Made by a program: the position numbers and the translations under genes
Notes under the pieces: model-generated
Told to the model about the DNA's origin: nothing
Database searches by the model: none
What the model saw: the letters and a program-made list of their open reading frames with translations, nothing else
Origin: a bacterium
Lineage (GTDB): Bacteria; Patescibacteriota; Minisyncoccia; JAHIHE01
Assembly: GCA_030693205.1 (NCBI GenBank)
Contig: JAUYBG010000005.1
Span: 9,017-73,016, forward strand
DNA length: 64,000 nt
Direction of reading: 5' to 3'
Part shown: in pieces, positions 29,365 to 44,841 of the stretch
How positions within the stretch are numbered: the stretch's first letter is position 1
Layout: every line of letters starts with the position of its first letter

Positions 29365-29393
29365 TTGACAAGAAAATTAATTATTGCTATACT
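29365..29393 (+). promoter_or_regulatory. Consensus promoter (TTGACA, 17-nt spacer, TATACT)
   Basis: TTGACA at 29365-29370, TATACT at 29388-29393. Confidence 0.55.
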
Positions 29394-29399
29394 TTTTAA

Positions 29400-29500
29400 C
29401 GCTAACCACTTAGTAATCACAAAGGTAATCACAGGTGGCTTACTGCTTAGTTTTTGGCAGGTTCTTCCGCCAACACTCCTCCCTTTGTGATTCTTTTTTA
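29400..29500 (+). ncRNA. Candidate small RNA or leader: long-range stem (AATCACAAAGG / CCTTTGTGATT) enclosing a sub-hairpin, ending in a U-tract
   Basis: Transcript predicted from the promoter above; 11-bp complementary arms at 29415-29425 and 29482-29492, followed by TCTTTTTTAAAA. Confidence 0.35.
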
Positions 29501-29536
29501 AAATCAAGCTTAAATAAGCTTGGTGTGTGGTCAGGT

Positions 29537-29613
29537 GGGCGATAGTTCGTAATTTCTAATGATACTTTGCCGGGATGCAAAGATTAAGATACGAACTATA
29601 CGCCCTTTTAATT
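29537..29613 (+). ncRNA. Second structured element: long imperfect stem GGGCGATAGTTCGTA / TACGAACTATACGCCC with internal CTTTGC/GCAAAG hairpin, then TTTTAATTTT
   Basis: Seen directly in the sequence between the first structure and tRNA-Arg. Confidence 0.3.
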
Positions 29614-29654
29614 TTGCCAAAAAAGCTTAAAATGGTAGAATTGATGTTAGAGAA

Positions 29655-29729
29655 AGCTCTCGTAGTTCAATGGATAGAATGCGAGCCTCCGAAGCTTGTG
29701 ATACAGGTTCGATTCCTGTCGAGAGCACC
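29655..29729 (+). tRNA. tRNA-Arg (anticodon CCG), CCA encoded
   Basis: Manual fold: acceptor GCTCTCG/CGAGAGC, anticodon loop CTCCGAA (CCG), T-arm ACAGGTTCGATTCCTGT, discriminator A, then CCA. Confidence 0.85.
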
Positions 29730-29745
29730 AATTAAATAATTTTTA

Positions 29746-30738: not shown

Positions 30739-30762
30739 GCAAATAGTTTAAACAATAAATCT

Positions 30763-31302
30763 ATGGCGGGAAAAATCAAAAAAATATCTTCAGAAGTAGA
30801 TTATAAGACCCCATATTTTAAAATTGTTAAAAGCGGTTTTTTGATTCCTGGGCAAAAAAAGCCGATTTATTGGTATCTTTTGAAACGCGCAAGTTACGCC
30901 GCGATTTTAGCGAAGGAGGGAAATTATTTTTATATGGTGGAGACATATAGGTTTGCGGTGGAGAAAAAAATGCTGGAATTTCCGGCAGGAGTTATTGAAA
31001 AAGGAGAAACGCCGCGGGTGGCGGCAAAAAGAGAGCTTGGCGAAGAAGCCGGCATTGTTGCCAAAAAATTTACTTTTTTGGGCTGGTATTACGCTTTTGT
31101 CGGAATGTCAGATAGCAAATCTTATGTTTTTTTGGCTGAAAATTTAAGTTTTACAAAACAAAAACTGGACGAAAGCGAATATGGTATGAAAGTGAAAAAA
31201 ATAAAAATTTCCGATGTGGAAAATTTAATAAGAAAAGGAAAAATCCGGGGCGAGCATAGTATAAATAGTTTTTATATTTATAAGCTAAAAAATAAAAAAT
31301 AA
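30763..31302 (+). CDS. NUDIX hydrolase
   Basis: Nudix box FPAGVIEKGETPRVAAKRELGEEAGI. Confidence 0.8.
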   Translation: MAGKIKKISSEVDYKTPYFKIVKSGFLIPGQKKPIYWYLLKRASYAAILAKEGNYFYMVETYRFAVEKKMLEFPAGVIEKGETPRVAAKRELGEEAGIVAKKFTFLGWYYAFVGMSDSKSYVFLAENLSFTKQKLDESEYGMKVKKIKISDVENLIRKGKIRGEHSINSFYIYKLKNKK

Positions 31303-31318
31303 GCCGAATGGTTTCGGC

Positions 31319-33031
31319 TTATAGATTTTTTACCATATATTCATCTTTTAGTCTATAACTCAATTTTCTGTAATAATCGCGCACTCCAATTCCGGAGATG
31401 ACCGCGATTTTTTTTATGCCAAATTCTTCGCGCACGATCCGTTCGGCTTCGGCGATCAATTGTTTGCCCAATCCGATATGTTGAGCGTTCCTTGTGCCTT
31501 TTTCCGCGATTGGCACAAGTTGGCCGTAAGTATGCACTTCTCGGATAATTGCCGCGTTTTGCAATGCTGGAATAAAATGTTTACCCTCCGAAGCCTTGGC
31601 GAAGGGGGGCTTTTTGCGTGATAATACTTTCGAAGGTATTCTCAGGCGCAAAAGCGCGAATAGTTTATCTTGTTTGGTGTCCTCAAAAGATAAGAAAATT
31701 TCTTTTCCGCCCGATGCCGGATAATCCATTCTTTTTAATTTTAGATTTTTAGGCGCGAATGTTTTATCTTTGATCTCGCGGCAGCGGATGCATCGGCAAT
31801 GCAGAATATCTTGGCGAGTTTTTTGCTCGATTATTTGGCGCAGGTTGGAAATCTTACTTCCGGCGATAATGCTTTGCGAAGGGATATCGCGCACAAGGCG
31901 CATAATTCGGACATAGGGCGGAATATCTTTTTTTATATCAATCAAAAGATTCAGCAGTTGCTTGTCGGAGTATGGCTTGTATTTACCTCGTTTCCACCAT
32001 TGATAAAGCTCGGAATTTTTTACCACTACGGTCGGATAAATTTTTAAAATATCCGGCTGGAAGTTTTTGTTGCTGAAAATCTCTCGAAACATTTTTTTAT
32101 CGCGGCTTATGCTGGATCCGGGAAGATTCGGCATCATATGGTAATTGATCTTTAGCCCGGCGTCTTTCAGAAGTTTTGTAGCTTGAATGGTTTGGGAAAT
32201 ATTGTGTCCGCGTTTATTTAATTTTAAGACATCGTCATAAATGCTTTGTACGCCGAGCTCTACCCGAGTTACGCCGAGTTCGCGCAGTTTCAAAACTTCT
32301 TTTTCATTAATATAGTCTGGCCGGGTCTCAATAGTAATACCGACAAGACGATGTTTAGATTTCTCGTTTATTTTTTTAATTTGTTTTAAAGTTTGTGTTT
32401 TGGAATTTTTGATTTGTTTGGGATTTGGGATTTGGGATTTGGGATTTGTGGCAAAAGTATTTGCCGCTTGGTAGCATCTTTTAATAAATTCGTATCTATA
32501 CTTATCCGGTATGGAACTAAAAGTCCCTCCAATAATAATTAATTCTATCTTGTCTGTAGGGTGGCCGGAATTTTCCAGTCCCTCAAGGCGCGTTTGGACT
32601 TGCCGGTATGGATCAAAGTCGTTGGCAATTGCCCGCATTACCGCCGGTTCGTTGGAAAGATAGCTTTTGGGCATGCCTTTTTCTGTGGGGCAATAAAGGC
32701 AATTGCCCGGACAGCCGAAGTCTTTGGTCAGCACCGCTACTACTGCTACGCCGGATTGGGAGCGCACTTTTCGAGTGCGGAGGAGGTTTTTTATCTCTTC
32801 TTGGCGGCTCAAAGAGGGCTTAAGCGCGCCGCTTTTTATCATTGTATTATACTCTTTAAGGAGTATAATATTTGTAGGCGTTTTAAGGTATTTTTTGCCG
32901 AATTTCCGCTTCAAAACGGAAAGAGCGTCAGGATTATTGACGTTGTTTTTAATGATTAATCTAATAAGCTGTTGGTTAATTGTCATCCCGTTTTTATTTA
33001 TTATTGCAAGATATGGATATTCAATACGCAA
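31319..33031 (-). CDS. Elp3-like radical SAM / GNAT acetyltransferase (tRNA wobble-uridine modification enzyme homolog)
   Basis: Radical SAM motif AVLTKDFGCPGNCLYCP (Cx4Cx2C) in an Elp3-like context; C-terminal GNAT region (HIGLGKQLIAEAERIVREEFGIKKIAVISGIGVRDYYRKL); 570 aa. Contains a low-complexity insert encoded by a 7-bp microsatellite. Confidence 0.65.
   Translation of the reverse strand: MRIEYPYLAIINKNGMTINQQLIRLIIKNNVNNPDALSVLKRKFGKKYLKTPTNIILLKEYNTMIKSGALKPSLSRQEEIKNLLRTRKVRSQSGVAVVAVLTKDFGCPGNCLYCPTEKGMPKSYLSNEPAVMRAIANDFDPYRQVQTRLEGLENSGHPTDKIELIIIGGTFSSIPDKYRYEFIKRCYQAANTFATNPKSQIPNPKQIKNSKTQTLKQIKKINEKSKHRLVGITIETRPDYINEKEVLKLRELGVTRVELGVQSIYDDVLKLNKRGHNISQTIQATKLLKDAGLKINYHMMPNLPGSSISRDKKMFREIFSNKNFQPDILKIYPTVVVKNSELYQWWKRGKYKPYSDKQLLNLLIDIKKDIPPYVRIMRLVRDIPSQSIIAGSKISNLRQIIEQKTRQDILHCRCIRCREIKDKTFAPKNLKLKRMDYPASGGKEIFLSFEDTKQDKLFALLRLRIPSKVLSRKKPPFAKASEGKHFIPALQNAAIIREVHTYGQLVPIAEKGTRNAQHIGLGKQLIAEAERIVREEFGIKKIAVISGIGVRDYYRKLSYRLKDEYMVKNL
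32417..32450. repeat. 7-bp microsatellite (TTTGGGA, about 4.7 copies) inside the Elp3-like coding sequence
   Basis: TTTGGGATTTGGGATTTGGGATTTGGGATTTGTGG; encodes the PNPKSQIPNPKQIK linker on the minus strand. Confidence 0.8.
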
Positions 33032-33744
33032 AATTTTTAATGGAAAAAACCAAGCGAGATTACGATGAAATTGCCGAGGAATTTTCGGCTACTCGGAAGT
33101 CTATGTGGCCGGAGCTCGGGGATTTGGATAAATACGCGGAAGAAGGCGATAGTGTTCTTGACATCGGCTGCGGAAACGGCAAACTTTTCGGATTTTTGGC
33201 GGAGAAAAGAAAAAATTTTTCGTATGTCGGTTTGGATATTTCGGAAAATCTTATAAATATTGCGAAACAGAATTTTAAAGCGGAAAATGCCGAATTTAAG
33301 GTTTTTGACGGAATCGAAATTCCATATGCTGAAAATAGCTTTGATATTATTTATTGTCTCGCCACATTGCCTCATCTTCCTGGCCGCGAAATGCAGATAA
33401 ACTTCTTGGAAAATGTCCGAAAAATTGCGAAACCCGGGGCAAAACTGATCATAACTTGCTGGAATCTTTGGCAGTTTAAGTTTATCAAATATCAAGCAAA
33501 AATGATAGTTAATTGTATCACAGATAAGATTTTAGGCAAGGATGAGTATGATTGGGGTGATTTGTATATTCCTTGGAAAAAACGCGGAGTTCCGCCGATT
33601 TTTCGCTTTTATCATGCTTTTACACTTGCTGAATTAAATAGTATTTTGAAAAAAGCGGGATGGGAAGTGGAAGAAATCGGTTATAAAAATCGCAACGGGA
33701 AGAAAAATTTCAATCTTTTCGCAGTGGCAAGAAAACCGATATAG
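32980..33744 (+). CDS. Class I SAM-dependent methyltransferase (Methyltransf_11-like)
   Basis: Motif I VLDIGCGNGKLFGFLAE, motif II/III present; its 5' end overlaps the convergent Elp3 gene by about 50 nt on the opposite strand. Confidence 0.7.
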   Translation: MSSRFYLLLQDMDIQYAKFLMEKTKRDYDEIAEEFSATRKSMWPELGDLDKYAEEGDSVLDIGCGNGKLFGFLAEKRKNFSYVGLDISENLINIAKQNFKAENAEFKVFDGIEIPYAENSFDIIYCLATLPHLPGREMQINFLENVRKIAKPGAKLIITCWNLWQFKFIKYQAKMIVNCITDKILGKDEYDWGDLYIPWKKRGVPPIFRFYHAFTLAELNSILKKAGWEVEEIGYKNRNGKKNFNLFAVARKPI

Positions 33745-33861
33745 TTAAAGTATGTTAAAAAGCAGGGTATTTCGCTCCGCTTTTTAAAATAGTGTTTTTA
33801 GTTGATTTTAAGCGGGTTTTGGGGTAAAATTAGGTAATAGTTGAATTTAAGGAAAATAATT

Positions 33862-36570
33862 ATGCAAGAACAAGCGAAAGAAAAAATAAAAGCGCTGGTG
33901 GAAAAATACGAGAAAATCAAGAGTTCGGGGAAATTAAAATCATATACCGAAGAAGAAACCAAGAAAGATCTAATCCTTCCTCTTTTGGAAGCGCTGGGCT
34001 GGAATGTTTTCGACAAAAACGAAGTTTCAGCCGAAGAACATATCATTTCTTCTGGCAGGGTTGATTACGGGATCTATCTTAACGGCAGGGCTAAATTTTA
34101 TCTGGAAGCAAAAAAGCTTAGCGCGGATTTGCAGCGAGAGGATTTTGCCAACCAATCAATTCGCTATTCGTGGAACAAAGGCGTGACTTGGGCCGTTTTG
34201 ACCGATTTTGAAAGTTTTAAAGTATTCAATGCTCAAGAAATTGATAAATCGCTGGCGGATAAATTGCTTTTTGAAATCCCTTATACCCAATATCTTGAAC
34301 GTTTTGACGAACAATTAAGCCTTCTTTCCAAAGAAGCGTTTGAAAAAGGCCTGATTGATAAATACGCCGAGGAACACGGCAAAAAACTGCAAAAAATATC
34401 CGTAAGCGCGCTTTTATACAAAGATTTGCAAAAAGCCAGAGATATTCTTACTAAAAGTCTGGCGGCGTGGAATGAAAAAGTTCCCAAAGACCTGCTTGAC
34501 GAAGGCGTGCAAAAATTGCTTGATCGCCTTATATTTCTTAGAGTAGCCGAAGATCGCGGCGTTGAGCCGCCGACATTGATTCCGATGATTAGGCAGTGGC
34601 AGGCCAGAAGCAAACAAGAACGCATTTACAAATCAATGATTGAGAAATTTCGGGAATTCGATAAGATTTATAATTCCAATTTATTCTCGCCGCATCCTTT
34701 TGAAGAGTGGGAAGAATACGACGACTCGACTGAAAAGGTGATTAATATTCTCTATGGTAAAAAAGGATATTATGAATACGATTTCAGCGCGATGCCGGCC
34801 GATGTGTTGGGTAGCGTTTACGAGAATTATCTGGGCTATCGGCTTTCACAGTCCAAAAAAGGAATGACTGTTGATAAGGATGCCAAAAAGCGCAAAGAGC
34901 AAGGTATTTATTACACGCCGACTTTTGTGGTTGATTATATTGTCAAAAACGCTTTGGGTCCGGTTTTGGCTGAATGTAAAAGCATCACCGATCTTAAAAA
35001 AATCAAGGTTCTTGATCCGGCTTGCGGTTCGGGCTCGTTTCTTGTCAAGGCTTTGGAAGCGATAAATGATAAATATAAGGATTTCGGCGCTGACGGCGGG
35101 GTTTATACCAAGCTTCAGATTTTAACCGAAAATATCTACGGGGTTGATCTTGACGAACAGGCGGTGGAAATCGCCAGATTGAATTTGTTGATTAACGCTT
35201 TGGATAGCAAGATTAAACTGCCGTCGCTCGCGAAAAATATTAAAAATGGTAATTCACTGATCTCCGACACCGACGAAGAATTAAAAAAATATTTTGGCAA
35301 AAATTTCAGGGACAAAAAGCCATTTAATTGGCAGGAAGAATTTCCAGAAGTTTTCGCGCAAGGCGGTTTTGATGTGATTATTGGCAATCCGCCGTATATT
35401 TTTGCTCGTGGCGGTAATTTTGATGAAAATGAAAAGAAATATTATTATGATAACTTTAAATTGCAGCAGTATCAACTAAATACTTTTTTGCTTTTTATAG
35501 AGCAAGGTTATAATTTATTAAAACAAAACGGCGAGTTTGGTTTTATTGTTCCCAATAATTGGTTGACTATAAATTCATTTTCAAAACTGAGAGAATTTTT
35601 GCTAAAAAATGTTGCTGATTTAAAAATTATTAACGCTATCGAAACTGTTTTTGATCAAGCTAGTGTGGATACAGGCCTTTTGTTATTTCAAAAATCAAAA
35701 CCGACAGAAATTCAACTTGGGGAATTGAAAGAGGGTAATATGCTCGATTTAACTACCTATAAACCAGAAAATTTCTATCAAAATGATTTTATTATTAATA
35801 TTTCAAAATCTAAGAATGTTAACGATAACAATATTTTGAGTAAATTTGAAAAATGTGTTCAACTTAATGAAATTGCGATTGTAAAATCTGGGCTAAAAGC
35901 ATACGAAGTCGGAAAAGGTATTCCTGCTCAAACTAAACAAATGAAGGATGATAGAGTTTATCATTCAAAAACAAAAATTGATCAAAATTATTTTCCCTAC
36001 TTAGAAGGTAAAAATGTTCAAAGGTTTAAAATAAACTGGAGTGGTTGGTATTTGAAATACGGAAAATGCCTTGCTGCCTCCCGAGAAGAAAAGTTATTTA
36101 AAAGTGAAAGAATTTTAGTTAGGCAAATTCCGTCTCCTTTTCCTAGTTGTATAAACGGTGTATTTACCAATAAAGATTATTTAAACGATATAAACAGCAT
36201 GATAATTTATGCTTCTACTAAAGAGTATAATCTTAAATATATTTTAGGGGTTATAAACTCTAGATTAATTTCTTATTGGTTTGTAAAGACTTTTGATAAA
36301 TTTCAGAGAAAGATATTTCCGCAATTTAAGGTTAATGAGCTTGCAAAATTTCCTATTTATCCAGCCAACAGGAAGCAACAGATGACTGTTGTAAATTTAG
36401 TTAATAAAATGCTTGCGTTTAACGAGGAGCTTTTAGAAGCTCCCAAAAATTCCAATAAATGGAATTCGATAAAAGAGGAAATTGAGAAGACGGATAGAAA
36501 AATAGACAAGGAAGTTTATGAGCTTTATGGATTGAGGGAGGAGGAAATTAGGATCGTGGAAAATATATGA
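33862..36570 (+). CDS. Single-chain Type IIG restriction-modification enzyme (N-terminal PD-(D/E)xK nuclease, gamma-class N6-adenine methyltransferase, C-terminal target-recognition domain)
   Basis: N-terminal HsdR_N-like nuclease motif (GRVDYGIYLNGRAKFYLEAKK); methyltransferase motif I VLDPACGSGSFLV and motif IV GNPPYI; long C-terminal specificity domain. Start set to the ATG at 33862; the track start is TTG. Confidence 0.75.
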   Translation: MQEQAKEKIKALVEKYEKIKSSGKLKSYTEEETKKDLILPLLEALGWNVFDKNEVSAEEHIISSGRVDYGIYLNGRAKFYLEAKKLSADLQREDFANQSIRYSWNKGVTWAVLTDFESFKVFNAQEIDKSLADKLLFEIPYTQYLERFDEQLSLLSKEAFEKGLIDKYAEEHGKKLQKISVSALLYKDLQKARDILTKSLAAWNEKVPKDLLDEGVQKLLDRLIFLRVAEDRGVEPPTLIPMIRQWQARSKQERIYKSMIEKFREFDKIYNSNLFSPHPFEEWEEYDDSTEKVINILYGKKGYYEYDFSAMPADVLGSVYENYLGYRLSQSKKGMTVDKDAKKRKEQGIYYTPTFVVDYIVKNALGPVLAECKSITDLKKIKVLDPACGSGSFLVKALEAINDKYKDFGADGGVYTKLQILTENIYGVDLDEQAVEIARLNLLINALDSKIKLPSLAKNIKNGNSLISDTDEELKKYFGKNFRDKKPFNWQEEFPEVFAQGGFDVIIGNPPYIFARGGNFDENEKKYYYDNFKLQQYQLNTFLLFIEQGYNLLKQNGEFGFIVPNNWLTINSFSKLREFLLKNVADLKIINAIETVFDQASVDTGLLLFQKSKPTEIQLGELKEGNMLDLTTYKPENFYQNDFIINISKSKNVNDNNILSKFEKCVQLNEIAIVKSGLKAYEVGKGIPAQTKQMKDDRVYHSKTKIDQNYFPYLEGKNVQRFKINWSGWYLKYGKCLAASREEKLFKSERILVRQIPSPFPSCINGVFTNKDYLNDINSMIIYASTKEYNLKYILGVINSRLISYWFVKTFDKFQRKIFPQFKVNELAKFPIYPANRKQQMTVVNLVNKMLAFNEELLEAPKNSNKWNSIKEEIEKTDRKIDKEVYELYGLREEEIRIVENI

Positions 36571-37166
36571 ATGTAAAAGATAAACAAATTTTAAAAGATT
36601 CAATTGATGTTATTATTTCAAATATTCCAGCATTGAATATTGCTTGGGGGTTAAGTAGAGCACTTTATGGAGCGGGGTTGAAATTACGGGAACAAAGAGC
36701 TTTGGAGTGGGTGGAGATGGTAAGGGATAATCCAGAAGTTTTTACTCAGGAAATATTGCAACAGGAAGAGTTTCAGGACGGATTTGTGTTTTCTCTTGAA
36801 AAGTATTTAACATCACGAAACGAAGAAAAACGTAGATATTTTCGGAATATATTTTTAGGATATTCTAAAAATGATAATAAATACGAGTTTGAATTGGAAA
36901 GATTTGTTCATGTTTTGTCGCAACTAAGTTTAGAAGATATAGATGTTCTTAAATATGTTAATGTTAAAACTCGCAATAGTTACCAAGTTTTTGACGATTC
37001 AAAGTGCTTATCAAGCATTTATCATTTGATTAATTTAGGTATTTTATACAATGATCCTTCGTCTCGAGTTGGTCCTATTGAATTTCCGTTTGTTTATACT
37101 TCGACACTCGGGATAAATTTTATTAAATACCTTAAAAATGAAAAATGTTTGGCCAATAAAAAATAG
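36567..37166 (+). CDS. Hypothetical protein translationally coupled (ATGA overlap) to the Type IIG RM gene
   Basis: 4-nt start/stop overlap with the upstream gene; no recognisable domain. Confidence 0.5.
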   Translation: MNVKDKQILKDSIDVIISNIPALNIAWGLSRALYGAGLKLREQRALEWVEMVRDNPEVFTQEILQQEEFQDGFVFSLEKYLTSRNEEKRRYFRNIFLGYSKNDNKYEFELERFVHVLSQLSLEDIDVLKYVNVKTRNSYQVFDDSKCLSSIYHLINLGILYNDPSSRVGPIEFPFVYTSTLGINFIKYLKNEKCLANKK

Positions 37167-37175
37167 GAGAAATAT

Positions 37176-38639
37176 ATGAATGATAACGATTTATTAAAAA
37201 TATTTTTAGCCGCGCAAGAATGGCAAACATTCGAATGCAAAAGAGCTGCCATTAAACCTGCTGATTTATTAGAAACAGCGGTTGCTTTTGCAAATGCCGA
37301 TGGCGGTCTTGTTGTTATAGGTCTTGAAGATTCCATGAAGGCTCAAGGAGAAAAAAGGTTTATTGGAATTAGTGAGAACGCGAGTAATGTTTCTGACTTT
37401 TTGAAACTGCTAGAAAAAGAAATCGAACCGCCGCTTATGTTGTGGGGAAAGTTTGAGCTTGATATTACAAACACGCAAGGCAAGGCGGATAAGCTTGTGG
37501 TAATAAATATTAAAAAGAGCAATGATGTGCACTCGCTTAAAAGAGGCGATACTTTCGTGAGGAAAGGCCATCAAAATGTTAAAATTGGCTCTACGGAAAT
37601 AATACGGCTTAAATATGAAAAAGGCGCCATAAAGTTTGAAAATGAAAAATCCGATATTGGCCAGCTTAATGATTTAAACCGCGACCTTTTTGAACAGTAT
37701 AAAAAAGATACATCATCCAGCGGTTTAGATGACTGGCAATTCTTGAAAGACAACGGATTAGCTCTAAATGAGGGTGGCAAATATGAATTAACTAAGGCGG
37801 GAATACTTCTTTTTGGTAAAAATCCGTCTGTTATTCTTAAAAGTAAGTGCGGAATAAAAATTTCTCATTACTATGGAACAAAGCCAACATATACCGATAA
37901 ACCGAATTTTGTAAATCGACCGTTTACGATAGAAGGACCGCTAATAAAGCAAATAGAACAAGCCATTGAATATTTTAGCAGTGTTGTTAAAAAGTCTCCG
38001 CCAAAGTTAATTGGCGCTTCTTTTGTTCCGACCTTTTTAATACCGGAATGGGCATTTCAAGAAGCAATAACTAATGCGGTTATCCATCGCAATTATTTTG
38101 TGCAAGACGATATTCAGGTTAGATTTTTTGATGATCGGGTTGAAATAGAAAGTCCAGGCACATACCCTGGTCATATTACAGTTGACAATATTAGATCGGA
38201 AAGATTTTCAAGAAACCCCTTGATTTTAAGAACACTAAATCGTTTTCAGATTGCTCCTAATTTGGATATTGGTGAGGGCGTTGATCGCATGTTTAAGGTA
38301 ATGAAAGAACAAAATTTATATGAACCGTTGTATTTTCCGCCGACCTTAAGGCCAAATTCCGTATTATTGATTTTATTAAATTTACACAAAGTCCAATATT
38401 GGGATACTGTCAGTAAATACGTAGACGAGAATTATCGAATTACAAACAAGAAAGCTCGCGAAATAACCGGTTTAAATGATGTGTTAAAAATGTCTAGGCT
38501 TTTAAAGGCATGGGTTGATAAAGGATTACTTGAAAAAATTGGATTGGCAAAAAAAGATAGCTATTATAGAAAGCCGGGTCAAGAAATACCTAAGCGTTTA
38601 TTTTCAACAGGTATTGATAATAAAATAAAAAATAGGTAA
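37176..38639 (+). CDS. AlbA_2 (Schlafen-like) DNA-binding domain protein with C-terminal HATPase_c_4-like domain and wHTH
   Basis: N-terminus LLKIFLAAQEWQTFECKRAAIKPADLLETAVAFANADGGLVVIGLED is the AlbA_2/divergent AAA-4 signature; C-terminal ITNAVIHRNY...VEIESPG resembles HATPase_c_4; terminal wHTH-like segment. Confidence 0.6.
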   Translation: MNDNDLLKIFLAAQEWQTFECKRAAIKPADLLETAVAFANADGGLVVIGLEDSMKAQGEKRFIGISENASNVSDFLKLLEKEIEPPLMLWGKFELDITNTQGKADKLVVINIKKSNDVHSLKRGDTFVRKGHQNVKIGSTEIIRLKYEKGAIKFENEKSDIGQLNDLNRDLFEQYKKDTSSSGLDDWQFLKDNGLALNEGGKYELTKAGILLFGKNPSVILKSKCGIKISHYYGTKPTYTDKPNFVNRPFTIEGPLIKQIEQAIEYFSSVVKKSPPKLIGASFVPTFLIPEWAFQEAITNAVIHRNYFVQDDIQVRFFDDRVEIESPGTYPGHITVDNIRSERFSRNPLILRTLNRFQIAPNLDIGEGVDRMFKVMKEQNLYEPLYFPPTLRPNSVLLILLNLHKVQYWDTVSKYVDENYRITNKKAREITGLNDVLKMSRLLKAWVDKGLLEKIGLAKKDSYYRKPGQEIPKRLFSTGIDNKIKNR

Positions 38640-38881
38640 TTATCCTTTGTTTATGCAGGTTTTCTTTAATGTCATTTTCACAGCTTTTAAAATTCAAATT
38701 CTCCAAAAAGCTAGGCTTTTTAAAATAATTTTATACGGATACAAAATTTTCAAAAGATTCAATCAAACCCAAAATCGCGGAAATTTTTGAGCAATATTTC
38801 GCAAAAATCGGACATTGTAATATCTCGACTGAATTTTCTTGCCATGGCATAAATTTTCAGTTACAGTAATTTATTTTTAAA

Positions 38882-39487
38882 ATGATTTTACCTAAAATTT
38901 TTAAAAAGAAAGATATTGAGAAGCCAAACGCAATATATGTGTTTATTGATGCGTCGAATTTATGGCAGGCGCAAAAGGCCAAAGGAAAAATGTTTGATTA
39001 TCAGAAGTTGAAAATATTTTTGAAAATAAAATTTGGCGCTTCCGAGATTCAAGTATTTTATTATACCGCCTATCCCGCCAAAGGAACGCGAGATTACTGC
39101 CTTGACGGCAGACATAAGTTTTTTACCTATTTAAAGAAAGGGCTTGGATTTATTGTGAGAAAGAAAGAATTAAAAAGAATAACAACCCATAGCGATGAAC
39201 TTGGCGATTCAATTCAGGAAAAAGGAAATATGGATGTCGAAATGACGATTGATGTAATTCATCATATGAAAAAGTATGATGTTGCTGTATTATTTACGGG
39301 CGATTCTGATTTTCTTGAGTTGGTAACTTATGTAAAAAATGGAGGCAAAAAAGTTTATATCTTTTCTTCAAAGAATAATATTTCCCAAGAATTGCGAACA
39401 GGCGGGGATGGTTATTTTGATGTACTTAATATTGGAGAAGATATTTGGGGCAGAGAATTAAAGCGTAGGGAGAATATGCCGAAATAA
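38882..39487 (+). CDS. NYN/LabA-like (PIN-fold) domain protein, putative ribonuclease
   Basis: VFIDASNLW...GNMDVEMTIDVI...DVAVLFTGDSDF acidic catalytic pattern of NYN/LabA domains. Confidence 0.6.
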   Translation: MILPKIFKKKDIEKPNAIYVFIDASNLWQAQKAKGKMFDYQKLKIFLKIKFGASEIQVFYYTAYPAKGTRDYCLDGRHKFFTYLKKGLGFIVRKKELKRITTHSDELGDSIQEKGNMDVEMTIDVIHHMKKYDVAVLFTGDSDFLELVTYVKNGGKKVYIFSSKNNISQELRTGGDGYFDVLNIGEDIWGRELKRRENMPK

Positions 39488-39659
39488 AAAGCAACCCTCC
39501 TCGCGGAAGGTTGCCCTTGGATGTAAAACCCTATCAGTTTATGGAAAACCAATAGATACTTATAATATACTCTTTCTAAATTTAAAGTCAATAGTCTATC
39601 CACATAATCAATAAAATTAAAATTTTCCAAAGATCTAATCAAAGAATAAGATAAATATT

Positions 39660-40033
39660 ATGGAAACTACAAAAATAGCTTTATTTAAAGGAAAAAAAAT
39701 TAGACGAATTATTTTTAAAAATGAGTGGTATTTTTCAGTTGTTGATATTATTGAGGCGTTAACGGATAGCGTTCAGCCGAGTAAATATTGGACCGCAATG
39801 AAAGCAAGGGTTAATTTGGAAGATGAAGTTCAGTTATCTACAATTTGTAGACGACTGAAATTCATCGCCAAGAAAATTCAGAAGGCATACCAAAATTAAA
39901 GCAAGATGCCGGCAGGGGAGGGAAGATAGCCGGAAACGCCAGAAAAGAACTGGAAAAAGAATTAGGCAGACCAATTGTGTCTAAAAAGAATTATTTGCAA
40001 AAACCGAAAAATAAAAAGTTATTAGATAAATAA
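39660..40033 (+). pseudogene. Decayed DinD / Bro-N family gene (N-terminal roughly 79 aa in frame 0, C-terminal tail in the -1 frame, middle deleted)
   Basis: N fragment KKIRRIIFKNEWYFSVVDIIEALTDSVQPSKYWTAMKARV parallels the DinD N-terminus (GQEFWSARELAPLLDYRDWRNFQKVLARA). From 39851 a different frame reads ...EGIPKLKQDAGRGGKIAGNARKELEKELGRPIVSKKNYL, matching the DinD C-terminus (...HFDVGRKVRQTIQELGGTMPEEL). A full-length homolog would be about 270 aa. Confidence 0.55.
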
Positions 40034-40147
40034 TATGAACTTAAAAATCTTAAAAATCAATTCATATTGAAAATCTGAACACAAAATTTTCAAAAGATTT
40101 AATTAAAGGACAAGATAAATATTTGGCGCTTTTCAAGAGTATAATTT

Positions 40148-41407
40148 ATGAAAACAAAAACAAAAGAAAATGATCTATGGGATGTCGTGGTGATCGGCGG
40201 AGGGCCGGCGGGAATGATGGCGGCGGGAAGGGCGGCGGAGCGCGGTTTGTCAGTTTTACTCTTGGAAAAAAATGCGGTACTCGGAAAAAAACTTCTGCTT
40301 ACTGGCGGCGGGCGGTGCAATTTAACTAATAATATTTCCGATATTCGCTTGTTGTCAGCGAAGTATAAAAAAAGCGGCAAGTTTTTATTGTCGGCTTTTT
40401 CACAGTTTGGCGTTGAGGAAACGCTTGAGTTTTTCAATAGCCGGGGAATGGCGACGAAAGAAGAAGACGACGAAAGAATTTTTCCTGTTTCCAATCAGGC
40501 GCAATCGGTTTTAGATGTGCTGATTCGCTATATGAAAAAAGGCGGAGTAAAAATTGAGACTAATTCTGAAGTTAACGATTTGACGATTGGCGCGAAAAAA
40601 AAGCATTTTAACATTCGGATCAAGGACGGAAAAGAGTTAAAAGCGAAATCATGTATTGTCGCGACCGGAGGCACTGCGCTTTCTGTTACCGGTTCCACCG
40701 GCGATGGATTTATTTGGCTTAAAAAACTTGGACATGCTATTGCCGAAAATAATCTCGCGCTTGTGCCGGTCGCGTTGAAAGATATTTGGGCGAAAAAATT
40801 AAGCGGAATAATTCTTGAAGATATTAAGCTTACGATATTTCAGAATGGCCGCAAATACGGAGCGGAAAAAGGCAAGATGCTTTTTGCCCATTTTGGGATT
40901 ACCGGACCGCTAGTGCTTAATATGAGCAGGGAAATCGGCGAGCTGATAAAGAATGGCGAAGTTATTATATCGCTTGATCTTTTTCCGGGCCTTGATCAAA
41001 ATGCATTGAGTAAAAAATTTCTGGAACTTCTCCAAAACGAGAGTAATAAAAAATTGAAAAATACATTAAGCCTTTTTATTCCTTCGGCGCTTGCTTTAGA
41101 AGTTTTAGAGATGGCGAGTATTGATGGCGAAACTTTTAACCATAGTTTAAAAAGCGAAGAACGGGTGAAATTACTTGCGATGTTAAAAAATATTACTCTT
41201 AATGTCCGGGGCTTGCTTGGAGCGGATAAAGCGATTGCTTCTTCGGGCGGTGTTGAGCTCCGAGACGTAGACTTTAAGACAATGCAGTCGCGTCTTGTGC
41301 CTCGCTTGTATATTATCGGAGACGCGTTAAATATTGATCGCGCTTCCGGCGGCTACAGCCTGCAGCTTTGTTGGACGACCGGTTTTGTGGCGGGAGATAA
41401 TTGCTGA
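40148..41407 (+). CDS. HI0933-like (aminoacetone oxidase family) FAD-dependent flavoprotein
   Basis: Dinucleotide-binding motif DVVVIGGGPAGMMAAGRAAERG and GGGRCNLTN signature. Confidence 0.8.
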   Translation: MKTKTKENDLWDVVVIGGGPAGMMAAGRAAERGLSVLLLEKNAVLGKKLLLTGGGRCNLTNNISDIRLLSAKYKKSGKFLLSAFSQFGVEETLEFFNSRGMATKEEDDERIFPVSNQAQSVLDVLIRYMKKGGVKIETNSEVNDLTIGAKKKHFNIRIKDGKELKAKSCIVATGGTALSVTGSTGDGFIWLKKLGHAIAENNLALVPVALKDIWAKKLSGIILEDIKLTIFQNGRKYGAEKGKMLFAHFGITGPLVLNMSREIGELIKNGEVIISLDLFPGLDQNALSKKFLELLQNESNKKLKNTLSLFIPSALALEVLEMASIDGETFNHSLKSEERVKLLAMLKNITLNVRGLLGADKAIASSGGVELRDVDFKTMQSRLVPRLYIIGDALNIDRASGGYSLQLCWTTGFVAGDNC

Positions 41408-41521
41408 AGGCTATAAAGACTTTATTTGCTTCTCATACCGGGCGCAAAACCCGGTTTTTAATTTTATGGCAGATTTACAGGGTTTGTGATATAATTAAAC
41501 AAAATAGCTTAGAATAATCTT

Positions 41522-41848
41522 ATGTTTAGTCCCGTTATTAATTTTTTTTACGGCTGGTATATTGATGATACGAGAAATTTTTGGAATTGGCTCGGCAAGC
41601 TTTTAAAAACCCTTGATCGCGACATAGGATTAGTTGGTAATTTGCAAAACTGGGCAAGTCCTCTTTATGGAGACTATACTTATGTTGGGATAGTGATAGG
41701 GCCGATCCTAAGGACTATGAGGATTTTTTTTGGTCTGGCTTTTTACTCGGTAATAGCTTTTTTTTCGTTGATGGTTTATTTATTTTGGATAGCTTTGCCA
41801 ATGGTGGCAATTATAATGGTATTTTTAAATTTATTTGATAAAAGATAA
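41522..41848 (+). CDS. Small membrane protein (2 TM), hypothetical
   Basis: ORF with two hydrophobic segments; no motif. Confidence 0.35.
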   Translation: MFSPVINFFYGWYIDDTRNFWNWLGKLLKTLDRDIGLVGNLQNWASPLYGDYTYVGIVIGPILRTMRIFFGLAFYSVIAFFSLMVYLFWIALPMVAIIMVFLNLFDKR

Positions 41849-41850
41849 TA

Positions 41851-44586
41851 ATGGCGGGGATCAATGTCAATAAAAACAAGGATAGTATGGAAATTATAAC
41901 TTGCTCTGTTTGCGGCGGCTTGGGAATTGTTGTCGCTCGTCAATCGGAAGCAAAAAGCCAAACGTGCCAAGAATGCGGCGGCGCGGGAGTGTGGCTCGCA
42001 AAAGGCAATGAAAAATATTTTTGGCAGCCGCAAAACAAAATAGGTTCGTCCTTATCCCGATGGCTAAAGACCGTTGTAGCTGTTGCTATTAAGATTTTGG
42101 CGATTTTTTTTATCATTTCTTCTTATGACAAAGCGATTGTTTTTCTGGAATCTTCCGATGATATTTTTGCTTTGTTCACTCAAAAAGGCGTCGAACCTTT
42201 TCTTTTTTGGGCATCAACGCTTGTTTTGGTTTACTGGATCTATCTTTTGCGGGCGGCGGCAAAAAAAGAGCGCGAACAAGATTTTGATATTTTTAAAATA
42301 GTATTCGGTGTGTTTGATAAAGCGGAAACAAATCGGGGAAGCGGGTTCAATATTGAGCCGCTTTTGGATTCTTCGGCCAAGGGAAAAATTTACGAAGCCG
42401 GAGCGATTGCCGAAGGATCAAAAAACCAGGTTGGCGTTTGGCATTTACTGAAAGCGCTGTTTAGTGATCGGGATATTGAACGGATCATTGCTATGCTTGA
42501 AGTCAGCCAAAAAGAAATGATCGAATTAATAAATAATAAGATCAAAGAAACCGCCGAGCCGATCTTAGGAGAGCAAAAAGTTCAATTCAATGCCGATATT
42601 AAGAAAGCCGTGATCGGTTCTTTGCTGGAAGCGGTAAAAATGGGTAGGAAAGATATTGATAAAATAAGCCTTTTTTCTTCGGTGGCGATAAATCTTAAGG
42701 ATGTTAATTTTTTCTTGCAGGGATCGGGGATCAACGCGGAGAATCTTCATACGGGAGTATTGTGGTCTCAAAAGGAAAATAACGGAGGATTCTTACAAAA
42801 GTTATTTATAAAAAAAGGGCTCAGAAGAGTAACGATCAAGCATCGGATAATGAATAGCGCGTGGACAGCCAGGCCGACGCCGACTCTTGATAAATTCAGC
42901 TACGACATAACCGATTATGCGGCGGCGGGGGTTTTGCCTCCGATCGTGGGCAGAGAAAAGGAGATCAGCGAAGTAATGAGAATTTTGGAGAGAAACAGCA
43001 AGAATAATGTGCTTTTGATCGGCGAGACAGGGAGCGGCAGAAGATCTATCGTTAACGCGATCGGCAGATTAATGGCTAGTGATAAATGTTTGTCAAAACT
43101 TAGAGACAAGCGTCTGGTTTCTCTTGATGCTTCATTGGTAGTTTCCGGAGTGACGGCAGGCGGTGAGCTTGAGGAGAGAATACAAGATATTTTGCAGGAA
43201 ATCCAATTGGCGGGGAATATTATTTTTTTTATTCCCGATATTCATAATTTAGCCGACTCGGGCGCTGAGCATGGTTTTGATGTTTCGGAAATCCTAACTC
43301 CGGTTTTCAGACAAAGCTATTTACAGGTAATTGGTACGACAACTTTTTTTGATTATCACCAGACGATCGAGAAGCGCGGCGATTTTGCCGATACTTTTGA
43401 TATAGTTAAGGTGGAAGAGGTTACTCCCGATGTTGCTTTGGAAATTTTATCAAGGGAATCATACGGAATAGAGGAAAAAGAAGAAGTTCGGTTTACTTTT
43501 AATGCTCTTAAAAAAGCGGTTGATCTTTCCCAAAGGTACATTTTTAACAAGCTTTTGCCCGCCAAGGCTGTGGATCTATTAAGCGAGGCTGCGGTTATGG
43601 TGAAAGTGCGATCGGGAAAAGATTCTTTGGTAAAGAGCGAAGACATCATGGCTTTGGTGACCGAAAAGACAGGGGTGCCGGTTATTGATATTACAAGCAA
43701 GGAAGCGAATATATTAAATAATCTTGAATCAGAGATTCACAAAAGAATGATCGGCCAGGATTTGGCGGTTAAAGCGATTTCCGAAGCGATCAAAAGAATG
43801 CGAGTGGGTTTGAAGAACGAGAAAAAACCTATGGGTGTGTTTCTTTTTTTGGGGCCGACGGGAGTGGGGAAAACAGAGCTGGCTAAGACTCTGGCTGAGG
43901 TTTATTTCGGTTCGGAAAAATTAATGGTGCGCCTGGATATGAGCGAGTTTCAGTCGGTGCAAAGCATTGAAAAACTGATCGGTTCTCCGGACGGAGTTGT
44001 CAGCGGCCAGTTGACCGAGGCGGTAAAAAAGAAGCCGTTTTCGCTTGTCTTGCTTGATGAGTTTGAAAAAGCGCATCCCAATGTTCTAAATTTATTTTTG
44101 CAGGTTTTTGACGATGGCCGCCTTACGGACAGTTTGGGCCGGTTGGTGGATTTTACCAATACTATTATTATTGCCACATCCAATGCCGGATCGAAGATCA
44201 TTCAGGAGCGGCTAAGGGAAGGAAAAACCATACCGGAATTCCAGGCGGAATTCGAAAAGAATTTATTGGAATATTTCAAACCGGAACTTTTGAATCGTTT
44301 TAACGCGCAGATCATATTCAAGACTTTATCCGAGGACGATATTACTCAGATCGCGAAGCTGCAGATCAAGAATCTTTCCAAGCGCATGGAGAAGGCTCAG
44401 GGCATTGAAATAAAGATCACAGATGAGGCGGTGGCAAAAATTTCAAGAATAGGATATAATCCTTTTTTTGGCGCTCGTAATTTGCAGAGGGTGATCACAG
44501 AAAAGATCGAAAACGTTATTGCCGATAAGTTTTTGAAAGGGGAGATCAAGCGCGGACAGGTTTATACGGTTAAAGATATAGAATAA
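41851..44586 (+). CDS. Clp/Hsp100-family two-ring AAA+ ATPase (ClpC/ClpB-like) with N-terminal zinc ribbon and two TM segments
   Basis: N-terminus CSVCGG...CQECGG (Zn ribbon) then TM segments (VVAVAIKILAIFFIISSY, LFWASTLVLVYWIYLL); a Clp_N-like repeat; D1 with atypical Walker A GETGSGRRS (Lys replaced by Arg); D2 with canonical GPTGVGKTELAKTLA, sensor and ClpB_D2-small motifs. No IGF/LGF ClpP-docking loop noticed. Confidence 0.75.
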   Translation: MAGINVNKNKDSMEIITCSVCGGLGIVVARQSEAKSQTCQECGGAGVWLAKGNEKYFWQPQNKIGSSLSRWLKTVVAVAIKILAIFFIISSYDKAIVFLESSDDIFALFTQKGVEPFLFWASTLVLVYWIYLLRAAAKKEREQDFDIFKIVFGVFDKAETNRGSGFNIEPLLDSSAKGKIYEAGAIAEGSKNQVGVWHLLKALFSDRDIERIIAMLEVSQKEMIELINNKIKETAEPILGEQKVQFNADIKKAVIGSLLEAVKMGRKDIDKISLFSSVAINLKDVNFFLQGSGINAENLHTGVLWSQKENNGGFLQKLFIKKGLRRVTIKHRIMNSAWTARPTPTLDKFSYDITDYAAAGVLPPIVGREKEISEVMRILERNSKNNVLLIGETGSGRRSIVNAIGRLMASDKCLSKLRDKRLVSLDASLVVSGVTAGGELEERIQDILQEIQLAGNIIFFIPDIHNLADSGAEHGFDVSEILTPVFRQSYLQVIGTTTFFDYHQTIEKRGDFADTFDIVKVEEVTPDVALEILSRESYGIEEKEEVRFTFNALKKAVDLSQRYIFNKLLPAKAVDLLSEAAVMVKVRSGKDSLVKSEDIMALVTEKTGVPVIDITSKEANILNNLESEIHKRMIGQDLAVKAISEAIKRMRVGLKNEKKPMGVFLFLGPTGVGKTELAKTLAEVYFGSEKLMVRLDMSEFQSVQSIEKLIGSPDGVVSGQLTEAVKKKPFSLVLLDEFEKAHPNVLNLFLQVFDDGRLTDSLGRLVDFTNTIIIATSNAGSKIIQERLREGKTIPEFQAEFEKNLLEYFKPELLNRFNAQIIFKTLSEDDITQIAKLQIKNLSKRMEKAQGIEIKITDEAVAKISRIGYNPFFGARNLQRVITEKIENVIADKFLKGEIKRGQVYTVKDIE

Positions 44587-44815: not shown

Positions 44816-44841
44816 TCAGTTTATAAATTTTTTACCGGGAC

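What the first reader, a model, noticed from the sequence alone, without database searches (positions are those of the whole stretch)
33862..40033. Defence-island-like block: Type IIG RM enzyme, coupled unknown gene, AlbA_2/Schlafen-HATPase protein, NYN nuclease, DinD/Bro-N pseudogene
Within 6 kb there is a single-chain Type IIG restriction-modification enzyme (PD-(D/E)xK nuclease, NPPY methyltransferase and target-recognition domain). Next are a 199-aa protein overlapping its stop, an AlbA_2 (Schlafen-like) protein fused to HATPase_c_4 and a wHTH, an NYN/LabA PIN-fold nuclease, and the wreck of a DinD/Bro-N gene. The block sits about 4 kb downstream of a tRNA-Arg gene and is flanked by housekeeping genes. 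This arrangement is typical of horizontally acquired immunity islands, and uncharacterised genes embedded in them often belong to novel systems. The AlbA_2-HATPase plus NYN pair, or the RM plus 199-aa pair, could each be a unit.
Basis: partly seen in the sequence, partly recalled or inferred. Interest (0 to 1): 0.6.

Follow-up and report, generated by a model that had tools for sequence, protein, structure and literature searches.

The report
Small defence island in a Patescibacteria genome
About 6 kb of an ultra-small (Patescibacteria-type) bacterium's genome holds an ordinary cluster of independent anti-virus genes; its two unusual parts are an uncharacterised DNA-binding protein that rides inside restriction systems and an undescribed small RNA that always accompanies one of the RNA-cutting genes.

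Summary
On the + strand, 33862-40033 carries five items. They are an intact Type IIG restriction-modification enzyme; a 199-aa unknown gene overlapping its stop; a Schlafen/AlbA_2 + GHKL-ATPase protein; an NYN nuclease; and a Bro-N/DinD gene wrecked by an internal deletion. Housekeeping genes flank the block, and 35-40 kb is the strongest compositional outlier in the window.

It is a defence-type variable islet, but neither proposed unit recurs.
- Homologues of the 199-aa protein sit next to many different restriction or defence genes, including inside two Type I RM operons.
- Homologues of the Schlafen protein never had an NYN neighbour.
- No integrase or tRNA-end repeat links the block to tRNA-Arg.

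The Schlafen protein belongs to the commonest published prokaryotic Schlafen class ("Schlatpase") and keeps the catalytic Ex4ExK motif.

Two things are new:
- The NYN gene travels with a conserved, convergently transcribed ~70-nt structured small RNA. It was found beside all seven distinct NYN loci examined and nowhere else, with compensatory base changes and no Rfam match.
- The 199-aa protein represents a Patescibacteria-wide family with no model in four libraries: a helical domain plus a winged helix.

Overall this is an ordinary island with two uncharacterised passengers.

The parts
33862..36570 (+). Intact single-chain Type IIG restriction-modification enzyme (902 aa): PD-(D/E)xK nuclease, gamma-class N6-adenine methyltransferase and TaqI_C-type target-recognition domain
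   Evidence: Pfam and PADLOC hits. Motifs D68..E82xK84, DPACGSG385 and NPPY509. PDB sequence matches only to methyltransferase cores: PglX/BrxX, M.TaqI, BsaXI.
35395..35395 (.). GC3 change point inside the RM gene, at the NPPY motif; probable left edge of the low-GC segment
   Evidence: GC3 is 0.43 upstream and 0.25 downstream. The log-likelihood gain is 16.3 over a one-composition model.
36567..37166 (+). 199-aa protein of an unannotated Patescibacteria-wide family: helical N-domain plus C-terminal winged helix-turn-helix; start overlaps the RM stop
37176..38639 (+). Stand-alone prokaryotic Schlafen ('Schlatpase'): SLFN_AlbA_2 RNase domain + GHKL ATPase (PF13749) + probable C-terminal HTH
   Evidence: Pfam. 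E15-x4-E20-x-K22. E296, N300 and D364-x-G366-x-G368 are invariant in 31 homologues. Full-length match to phrog_12156, 1.6e-96. Published classes in PMC13056530 and bioRxiv 10.64898/2026.05.29.728809.
38743..38768 (.). D1 direct repeat, copy 1 (core CAAAATTTTCAAAAGATT)
   Evidence: three matches found against 0.01 expected by chance.
38882..39487 (+). NYN/LabA-type PIN-fold nuclease (201 aa) with the acidic residues D23, D118, D124, D141 and D143
   Evidence: Pfam NYN 1e-20. Alignment to PDB 2QIP. Top 120 listed homologues are 73-91% identical, across several Patescibacteria lineages.
39484..39562 (-). Conserved ~70-nt structured small RNA convergent with NYN: a 10-bp hairpin, a conserved single-stranded linker (GGGUWUUACAUCYRAGRG), and a 10-bp GC hairpin with a U-run that abuts the NYN stop codon
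   Evidence: DNA homology to other NYN loci runs about 120 nt past the stop. The covariance model R1 scores 93-104 bits in all seven distinct NYN loci, with no hit at E<=0.01 on that strand in the other loci searched. 99% of cells are paired and 6 of 20 pairs show compensatory changes. Fold z-score -5.6. No Rfam family.
39564..39591 (-). Sigma-70-like promoter of the small RNA (TTGACT, 16 nt, TATATT)
   Evidence: Best promoter match in the region, 10 of 12. Both hexamers and the spacing are conserved in 6 of 7 loci.
39619..39644 (.). D1 direct repeat, copy 2; it begins about 4-15 nt after the last base of homology with other NYN loci (39604-39615)
39660..40033 (+). Bro-N/DinD-type pseudogene: N-terminal ~67 codons (39660-39899), then the C-terminal ~45 codons in frame +3 (open from 39851 to 40033); about 160 codons deleted
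   Evidence: PDC-S13 2.3e-21 and phrog_15286 1.5e-13. Three-frame translations compared with the 280-aa homologue in L009.
40083..40108 (.). D1 direct repeat, copy 3; lies left of the point (40140) where homology to HI0933 orthologue loci begins

Best explanation
The block is a small defence or variable islet made of independently mobile one-gene modules, not of multi-gene systems.

1. Type IIG restriction-modification enzyme. It is intact. It would methylate its own site and cut unmodified incoming DNA. Its part downstream of NPPY, including the target-recognition domain, appears to have arrived with the low-GC segment.
2. The 199-aa winged-helix protein. It belongs to a Patescibacteria-wide family that plugs into the 3' side of many different restriction or defence operons. 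It is most likely a DNA-binding accessory or regulator co-expressed with whatever system it sits in. This step is inferred, with low confidence.
3. A stand-alone 'Schlatpase' Schlafen. By analogy with characterised relatives, ATP binding to the GHKL domain drives oligomerisation that activates a tRNA-cleaving nuclease, giving abortive infection.
4. An NYN ribonuclease gene that always travels with a convergent small RNA. This is most simply read as a toxin plus RNA-antitoxin-like pair. This step is inferred.
5. A decayed Bro-N gene.

Shown here: gene content, motifs, family contexts, the conservation and structure of the small RNA, and the composition. Inferred: all activities.
For: - Domains and motifs are intact.
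- Composition is an outlier at 35-40 kb, with a GC3 break at NPPY.
- 199-aa family. It is translationally coupled to Mrr_cat (L019, L025), a KAP NTPase (L021/L022), SMODS+AGS_C (L031) and a helicase-MTES_1575 protein (L040). It also follows a 367-aa unknown gene downstream of DUF2254 (L005/L018). In L014 and L016 it is embedded between hsdM and hsdS. Neighbour families are dominated by NERD, Type I S subunits, KAP, Mrr, AAA_21 and Type IIG enzymes.
- Schlafen homologues are 70-84% identical in several Patescibacteria lineages. Their neighbours differ each time: Dcm/Vsr with a serine recombinase; AbiEii, Bro-N and MNT/HepT; dnaJ with a Gp49/HTH pair.
- The Schlafen + GHKL fusion is the majority class of prokaryotic Schlafens. 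Schlafen-Argonaute, which carries the same supradomain, defends by ATP-driven tetramerisation and tRNA cleavage.
- NYN with its small RNA occurs in seven different contexts. These include a site between hsdS and hsdR, one next to OLD/MutH/Dcm and one next to Dcm/Dam/HNH. The RNA is always present, at fixed spacing from the stop codon.
Against: - Nothing has been tested experimentally.
- No close relative with an empty site was found. The nearest HI0933 orthologue loci (~80% identity) share no synteny at all, so acquisition rests on composition and family mobility only.
- Some flanking housekeeping genes are also low in GC3 (0.31-0.37).
- Some homologue contexts are not defence-like: L001, L066 between pyrG and dnaG, and L090.
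- In published tests only the DUF262 and Ig-like Schlafen fusions protected E. coli; none of the HisKinase-type fusions tested did. The NYN candidate HEC-09 gave no defence against the phages tried.
- The small RNA shows no better-than-random pairing to the NYN mRNA 5' region or coding region.
Confidence: 0.7

Rival explanations
1. The Type IIG enzyme and the 199-aa protein form a dedicated two-gene system, for example with the small protein as a specificity or control subunit of this enzyme class.
For: There is a 4-nt ATGA overlap. The 199-aa protein has a winged-helix DNA-binding domain. The family is nearly always tightly coupled to a neighbouring gene.
Against: The coupled partner differs in almost every locus: Mrr, KAP, SMODS, a helicase-nuclease, hsdS, DUF2726-like proteins, a muramidase and unknowns. 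Some loci have no defence gene at all. A single-chain enzyme with fused restriction and methylation activities does not obviously need a controller.
Confidence: 0.12
2. The 199-aa protein is an autonomous abortive-infection or second-line effector that merely hitch-hikes inside other systems, following the logic of PrrC in EcoprrI. It is not a regulator or accessory.
For: It is embedded between hsdM and hsdS in the same orientation in two operons, which is the pattern used for 'guilt by embedding'. The N-terminal ~135 aa are the conserved module, while C-termini vary, including one Mrr_cat fusion. Abi_alpha gives faint hits (E 0.058; 2 of 105 relatives).
Confidence: 0.3
3. The Schlafen-ATPase protein and the NYN nuclease work as a pair.
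For: They are adjacent on the same strand, 242 nt apart.
Against: There is no co-occurrence in three other Schlafen loci or six other NYN loci. DNA homology to relatives stops at each gene's own borders. A D1 repeat and a separate promoter-like region lie between them.
Confidence: 0.04
4. NYN and its small RNA are a housekeeping RNA-processing enzyme with a cognate RNA (substrate, cofactor or regulator), not a toxin-antitoxin or defence module.
For: Sequence conservation is very high: 73-91% identity among the 120 listed homologues, which come from several Patescibacteria lineages. Some contexts are housekeeping or neutral. NYN domains include protein-only RNase P and LabA (recalled, not tested). 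HEC-09 gave no defence.
Against: The seven contexts are all different, and three are inside or beside restriction systems. DNA homology ends sharply at the cassette borders. No trans target was detected.
Confidence: 0.25
5. The block is an integrative island inserted at tRNA-Arg.
For: A tRNA-Arg gene lies 4.1 kb upstream.
Against: No Pfam-scanned ORF from 27977 to 47523 matched a recombinase family. No second copy of the tRNA 3' end exists in 64 kb. Four ordinary genes separate the tRNA from the block. The compositional break is at about 35.4 kb.
Confidence: 0.04

Closest known systems
Type IIG restriction-modification enzymes (Eco57I/MmeI-like single-chain enzymes; PADLOC REase_MTase_IIG)
   Same: One polypeptide with an N-terminal PD-(D/E)xK nuclease, a gamma-class N6-adenine methyltransferase (DPACGSG before NPPY) and a TaqI_C recognition domain.
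   Different: No close solved relative; PDB matches cover only the methyltransferase core. The recognition site is unknown. The gene is compositionally chimeric at the NPPY motif.
Prokaryotic Schlafens of the Schlafen + GHKL ATPase ('Schlatpase', HisKinase-HTH) class; Schlafen-Argonaute (RzAgo)
   Same: SLFN_AlbA_2 and PF13749 domains in the same order, the Ex4ExK motif, and the GHKL N-box and DxGxG box. The PADLOC pAgo model matches only across this supradomain. The class is described.
   Different: There is no Argonaute or other sensor domain, only about 100 C-terminal residues with an unconfirmed HTH-like pattern. In the published test only the DUF262 and Ig-like fusions protected; none of the HisKinase-type fusions tested did. 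The trigger is unknown.
HEC-09 and other stand-alone NYN candidates (PADLOC 'NYN', PDLC01154)
   Same: NYN/PIN-like fold with conserved aspartates; found embedded in defence systems.
   Different: The match to HEC-09 is partial (E 2e-5, residues 112-181). HEC-09 has an extra N-terminal HTH-like domain. The source read here mentions no associated small RNA.
Type I toxin-antitoxin loci with convergent, 3'-overlapping antisense RNAs (for example txpA/RatA and bsrG/SR4 of Bacillus; recalled, not tested)
   Same: A short RNA with its own promoter is transcribed towards the 3' end of the protein gene, and the two share a terminator hairpin.
   Different: Here the 'toxin' would be a 201-aa soluble nuclease rather than a small membrane peptide. 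Overlap with the mRNA is proven only for the terminator. Neither toxicity nor neutralisation has been shown.
Genes embedded in Type I RM, BREX and Hma systems (PrrC in EcoprrI; 'guilt by embedding', Payne et al. 2024)
   Same: The 199-aa family lies between hsdM and hsdS (L014, L016). NYN with its small RNA lies between hsdS and hsdR (L063). [quoted passage not shown]
   Different: Neither family is in PADLOC-DB v2 as a candidate: there is no hit for the 199-aa protein and only generic NYN hits. Both families are largely confined to Patescibacteria metagenome-assembled genomes.
Defence-associated transcription regulators (RM controller C-proteins; BrxR/CapW WYL regulators; recalled)
   Same: A small DNA-binding protein associated with many different defence systems.
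   Different: No Xre-type HTH or WYL domain was found. The gene is usually the downstream, translationally coupled gene rather than the first gene. No operator has been identified.

Membership tests
Type IIG RM enzyme | PD-(D/E)xK nuclease domain in the same chain | tested here: met
   HSDR_N 3.4e-10; D68...E82-A-K84.
Type IIG RM enzyme | N6-adenine methyltransferase with a SAM-binding motif and NPPY | tested here: met
   Eco57I 1.4e-40 and N6_Mtase 1e-24; DPACGSG385 and NPPY509.
Type IIG RM enzyme | Target-recognition domain in the same uninterrupted ORF | tested here: met
   TaqI_C 8.7e-25 at residues 719-839 of the 909-aa ORF.
Type IIG RM enzyme | Cleavage at a fixed distance from an asymmetric site; SAM-stimulated | not testable with these tools
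   Needs enzyme assays or methylome data.
Prokaryotic Schlafen / Schlatpase | SLFN_AlbA_2 domain with the catalytic Ex4(E/D)xK motif | tested here: met
   PF04326 6.4e-16; E15WQTFE20CK22; motif definition from PMC13056530.
Prokaryotic Schlafen / Schlatpase | GHKL ATPase domain PF13749 fused C-terminally | tested here: met
   HATPase_c_4 2.5e-16 at residues 312-386. E296, N300 and D364xG366xG368 are invariant. Supradomain definition.
Prokaryotic Schlafen / Schlatpase | C-terminal HTH (HisKinase-HTH subclass) | tested here: inconclusive
   No Pfam hit in the last 97 aa. The low-confidence AF2 model shows H-H-H-beta-beta at 409-465.
Prokaryotic Schlafen / Schlatpase | tRNA cleavage and phage protection | not testable with these tools
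   Experimental.
NYN / LabA nuclease (PF01936) | NYN domain with conserved acidic active-site residues | tested here: met
   PF01936 1e-20. D118/D124 and the G-D141-S-D143-F motif align with 2QIP. D23 lies in the IDASN motif.
HEC-09 (PADLOC candidate) | N-terminal HTH-like domain plus C-terminal NYN; full-length match | tested here: not met
   Only residues 112-181 match model positions 102-174 of 203, at E 2e-5. Architecture described.
Type III toxin-antitoxin (ToxIN-like) | Tandem-repeat RNA antitoxin upstream of, and co-transcribed with, the endoribonuclease toxin | tested here: not met
   The RNA is single-copy, downstream and on the opposite strand.
Type I toxin-antitoxin (3'-overlapping antisense) | Convergent small RNA overlapping the toxin mRNA 3' end | tested here: inconclusive
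   The arrangement and shared terminator are present. The extent of mRNA overlap and any regulation are untested.
Type I toxin-antitoxin (3'-overlapping antisense) | Toxin is a small hydrophobic peptide | tested here: not met
   NYN is a 201-aa soluble nuclease-fold protein.
Bro-N / DinD-type protein (PDC-S13) | Full-length ~280-aa ORF with Bro-N and the C-terminal region | tested here: not met
   Only residues 1-72 match positions 1-74 of 286. The C-terminal remnant is in another frame and the middle is deleted. It is a pseudogene.
tRNA-targeted integrative island | Integrase plus a direct repeat of the tRNA 3' end | tested here: not met
   No Pfam-scanned ORF matched a recombinase family. 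The tRNA 3' end occurs once in the window.
Abi_alpha (PF14337), considered for the 199-aa protein | Significant match to the family profile | tested here: not met
   E 0.058 and 13.8 bits against a cutoff of 29. Only 2 of 105 relatives match at E>=0.006.
Known RNA family (Rfam 15), considered for the NYN-linked RNA | Score at or above a family's gathering threshold | tested here: not met
   The best hit is BTnc231 at 24.9 bits against a threshold of 80.4. Nothing at E<=0.1 in the 13-kb search.

The most novel reading that the evidence does not exclude
The NYN nuclease and its convergent ~70-nt structured RNA form a new kind of mobile two-part module, widespread in Patescibacteria. It would be an RNase toxin or defence effector held in check by, or loaded with, a cis-encoded small RNA, and it inserts inside restriction systems. 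A second, independent possibility is that the 199-aa helical + winged-helix family is a new restriction-embedded accessory or effector specific to this phylum.
Probability: 0.3. Interest if true: 0.7.

Novelty: new member of a known kind. Interest (0 to 1): 0.4.

Why it matters
As a defence island the block is routine. It adds one Type IIG enzyme and one Schlatpase-type Schlafen to large known classes. Its value lies in the passengers.

Patescibacteria are said to carry few recognised defence systems beyond restriction-modification. Most discovery pipelines use RefSeq genomes, where this phylum is scarce.

Two families are highly conserved, mobile and repeatedly embedded in restriction operons. 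They are the 199-aa winged-helix protein, which has no model in Pfam, NCBIfam, PHROGs or PADLOC, and the NYN gene with its own covarying small RNA. Both are concrete, testable candidates for phylum-specific immunity or addiction modules.

The NYN-linked RNA is also a clean candidate for a new RNA family.

Tried and rejected
- Synteny test for an empty site. The metagenome scan with the HI0933 flank gene gave orthologues of 79-81% identity that share no neighbouring genes and no upstream DNA. The island borders therefore could not be set by comparison.
- L063 check. The 212-aa gene between hsdM and hsdS in L063 is not a 199-aa family member (hhalign probability 0.3%, no BLASTP hit).
- Four-helix-bundle (23S IVS protein) idea for the minus-strand reading of the D1 repeats. 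Pfam gives no hit, so it was dropped.
- Trans base-pairing of the small RNA with the NYN mRNA. Duplex energies are no better than shuffles, and the predicted sites are inconsistent across six loci.
- Viral origin. There is no exact match of the RNA core in IMG/VR. The only NYN relatives there are 30-34% identical and lack the RNA. No Schlafen relative was found there.
- Fold search of the 199-aa model against viral structures found nothing at E<=0.001. The afdb50 library was unavailable.
- The AF2 model of the Schlafen protein was too poor (pLDDT 49) to use for a fold search.
- Abi_alpha membership for the 199-aa family is sub-threshold only.
- Rfam gave nothing other than the tRNA.

Full report
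**Source.** The window's proteins are exact matches to an NCBI metagenome-assembled 'bacterium' (locus tag Q8N37_00485, 124-kb contig). Their relatives are nearly all from Patescibacteria/CPR genomes such as Paceibacterota, Saccharibacteria and Kaiserbacteria.

The 902-aa ORF from the ATG at 33862 has an AAGGAA Shine-Dalgarno sequence upstream. It has HSDR_N, Eco57I/N6_Mtase and TaqI_C domains and a 2.3e-109 match to PADLOC's Type IIG model. Its motifs are D68...E82xK84, DPACGSG385 and NPPY509. It is uninterrupted and so probably active.

The 199-aa ORF starts within the RM stop codon as ATGA. It matches nothing in Pfam, PADLOC, NCBIfam or PHROGs.

The 487-aa ORF follows 9 nt later with its own AGGAG. 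It has SLFN_AlbA_2 and HATPase_c_4 domains.

The NYN ORF (Pfam 1e-20) keeps the acidic residues that align with PDB 2QIP.

The Bro-N gene is a wreck. About 67 N-terminal codons and about 45 C-terminal codons survive, in different frames. About 160 codons are missing relative to a 280-aa homologue.

The flanks are housekeeping genes.

**Is it an acquired island?** Windows covering 35001-40000 are the strongest tetranucleotide outliers of the 64 kb (z 2.6-3.0; GC 0.33 against 0.395).

The compositional left edge is not at the start of the RM gene. GC3 drops from 0.43 to 0.25 at codon ~511, exactly at the NPPY motif. This suggests that everything downstream of the catalytic motif, including the recognition domain, was exchanged together with the downstream genes. 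That is an inference.

On the right, DNA homology to HI0933 orthologue loci starts only at 40140. The low-GC segment therefore runs from about 35.4 to 40.14 kb.

I could not find a close relative with an empty site. The nearest orthologues share no synteny.

tRNA-Arg is not the integration point. No Pfam-scanned ORF matched a recombinase family, and the tRNA 3' end is not duplicated.

**The two proposed 'units' do not hold.**

The 199-aa family has 260 hits of 55-67% identity and about 195 aa, and 336 clusters at 50% identity. I examined 33 further loci. Its neighbours are extremely diverse, but it is usually tightly coupled to one of them:
- Mrr-type endonucleases (L019, L025)
- a KAP NTPase (L021/L022)
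- a SMODS + AGS_C cyclase (L031)
- a helicase-MTES_1575 nuclease (L040)
- a 367-aa unknown gene downstream of DUF2254 (L005/L018)
- embedded directly before and overlapping hsdS in two Type I operons: L014 (hsdM, DUF3800, x, hsdS) and L016 (hsdM, AAA_14/DUF4143, HEPN, x, hsdS, ParA, hsdR)

Among 106 neighbours, the recurrent families are NERD, Type I S subunits, KAP, Mrr, AAA_21 and Type IIG/MADS methyltransferases, alongside some housekeeping genes. The protein is therefore a promiscuous resident of restriction and defence operons, not a partner of Type IIG enzymes.

For the Schlafen protein, homologues of 70-84% identity occur in several Patescibacteria lineages. They lie in three unrelated contexts, and none has an NYN gene.

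**What the Schlafen protein is.** It carries the catalytic Ex4ExK motif (E15, E20, K22) that defines prokaryotic and human Schlafen RNases (PMC13056530). It also has the GHKL N-box and DxGxG box.

Schlafen + HisKinase-like ATPase (34%) and the same with an HTH (19%) are the commonest prokaryotic Schlafen architectures. A 2026 preprint names the fusion 'Schlatpase' and finds it in 58.6% of 103,533 prokaryotic Schlafen proteins. In a Schlafen-Argonaute, it shows that ATP binding to the GHKL domain drives tetramerisation, which builds the active tRNase.

The gene here is thus a new member of a known, partly characterised class. Its trigger is unknown, and the HTH is unconfirmed.

**The NYN gene has a different, constant partner.** DNA homology between the window and NYN loci elsewhere runs about 120 nt beyond the NYN stop codon.

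On the minus strand this stretch contains, in order:
- a conserved TTGACT-16 nt-TATAYT promoter, the best promoter match in the region
- a 10-bp hairpin
- a conserved linker
- a 10-bp GC hairpin with a U-run that ends at the NYN stop codon

The region folds with z = -5.6. Across seven distinct sequences, 99% of cells pair and 6 of 20 pairs show compensatory changes. Slid controls collapse to 38-62% paired. Several positions are G-U pairs, which would be A-C mismatches on the + strand, so the RNA is the minus strand.

A covariance model built from six sequences scores 93-104 bits next to every NYN gene of this subfamily, including one not used to build it. On that strand it gave no hit at E<=0.01 in the rest of the ~730 kb of Patescibacteria and other loci searched. 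One- and two-nucleotide indels in the loop exclude a coding reading. Rfam has no such family.

The NYN + RNA cassette sits in seven different places:
- between hsdS and hsdR of a Type I system
- beside OLD, MutH and Dcm
- beside Dcm, Dam and HNH
- in this island
- in neutral or housekeeping sites

I read it as a mobile nuclease-plus-RNA module, most simply a toxin with an RNA-antitoxin-like partner. No activity has been shown, no trans target was found, and a housekeeping role is not excluded.

**Unexplained.** Three copies of a ~26-45-nt direct repeat (core CAAAATTTTCAAAAGATT) lie at 38743, 39619 and 40083. Only 0.01 would be expected by chance. They bracket the NYN + RNA cassette and the Bro-N wreck.

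A fourth exact 18-19-nt copy lies in the 3' end of a DEAD-box helicase gene at 1083-1101. None occurs in the other loci. They may be cassette junctions, duplicated promoters or operators. I could not decide.

**Verdict.** The 'defence island' reading is supported, but the proposed gene pairs and the tRNA link are not.

By type the island is ordinary. The Type IIG enzyme and the Schlafen are new members of known kinds, and the Bro-N gene is dead. The interest lies in two Patescibacteria-wide, unannotated, mobile modules: the 199-aa winged-helix protein and the NYN gene with its covarying small RNA.

Noticed in passing
window 39484-39591 (minus strand); also L062 10603-10681, L063 6583-6660, L064 6571-6651, L066 3607-3685, L076 3583-3662, L090 6595-6673: A conserved promoter plus a ~70-nt two-hairpin small RNA is transcribed convergently with every NYN gene of this subfamily. 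It has compensatory base changes and no Rfam match.
   Followed up: yes
window 38743-38768, 39619-39644, 40083-40108 and 1083-1101: A direct repeat with core CAAAATTTTCAAAAGATT brackets the NYN cassette and the Bro-N wreck. A fourth exact 18-19-nt copy lies inside the 3' end of a DEAD-box helicase gene (1033-2370, minus strand). Its meaning is unknown.
   Followed up: partly
window ~35395 (codon ~511 of the RM gene): A sharp GC3 drop from 0.43 to 0.25 falls at the NPPY motif. It suggests that the part of the Type IIG enzyme downstream of NPPY, including the recognition domain, was swapped in by recombination together with the downstream genes.
   Followed up: partly
window 39596-39604; L062, L064, L066 and L076 at the equivalent position: A 9-mer lies about 5 nt beyond the -35 box of the small-RNA promoter in 5 of 7 loci: TTATCCACA, with CTATCCACA in the window. 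As I recall, this equals the DnaA-box consensus. Not tested.
   Followed up: no
window 38828-38861: An imperfect 34-nt palindrome, ACTGAA-N6-TGCCA|TGGCA-N6-TTCAGT, lies 20 nt upstream of the NYN start codon. It is absent from other NYN loci and could be an operator.
   Followed up: no
L063 2780-9084: This Type I RM operon carries two embedded passengers. One is an unrelated 212-aa unknown gene overlapping hsdM and hsdS. The other is NYN with its small RNA, between hsdS and hsdR.
   Followed up: partly
P0330 (514 aa), P0257 (273 aa): Distant relatives of the 199-aa family keep the N-terminal ~135 aa but are fused to an Mrr_cat endonuclease domain (P0330) or a thymidylate-kinase segment (P0257). 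The second may be a gene-calling fusion.
   Followed up: partly
L053 10001-11107; L055 2-2039: In two groundwater contigs the 3' end of the HI0933-like gene is repeated two or three times in tandem fragments. In L055 a Bro-N-like fragment lies between the copies. This hints at repeated insertions at that gene's end.
   Followed up: no
window 47597-48026 (minus strand): A tmRNA gene of 430 nt with a long 26-residue tag, AKTLIGKVKSAVAQAFAVPSFAAAVA.
   Followed up: no
L066-L075, about 4564-6609: The DnaG primase gene downstream of one NYN locus carries Hint and LAGLIDADG (intein) domains.
   Followed up: no
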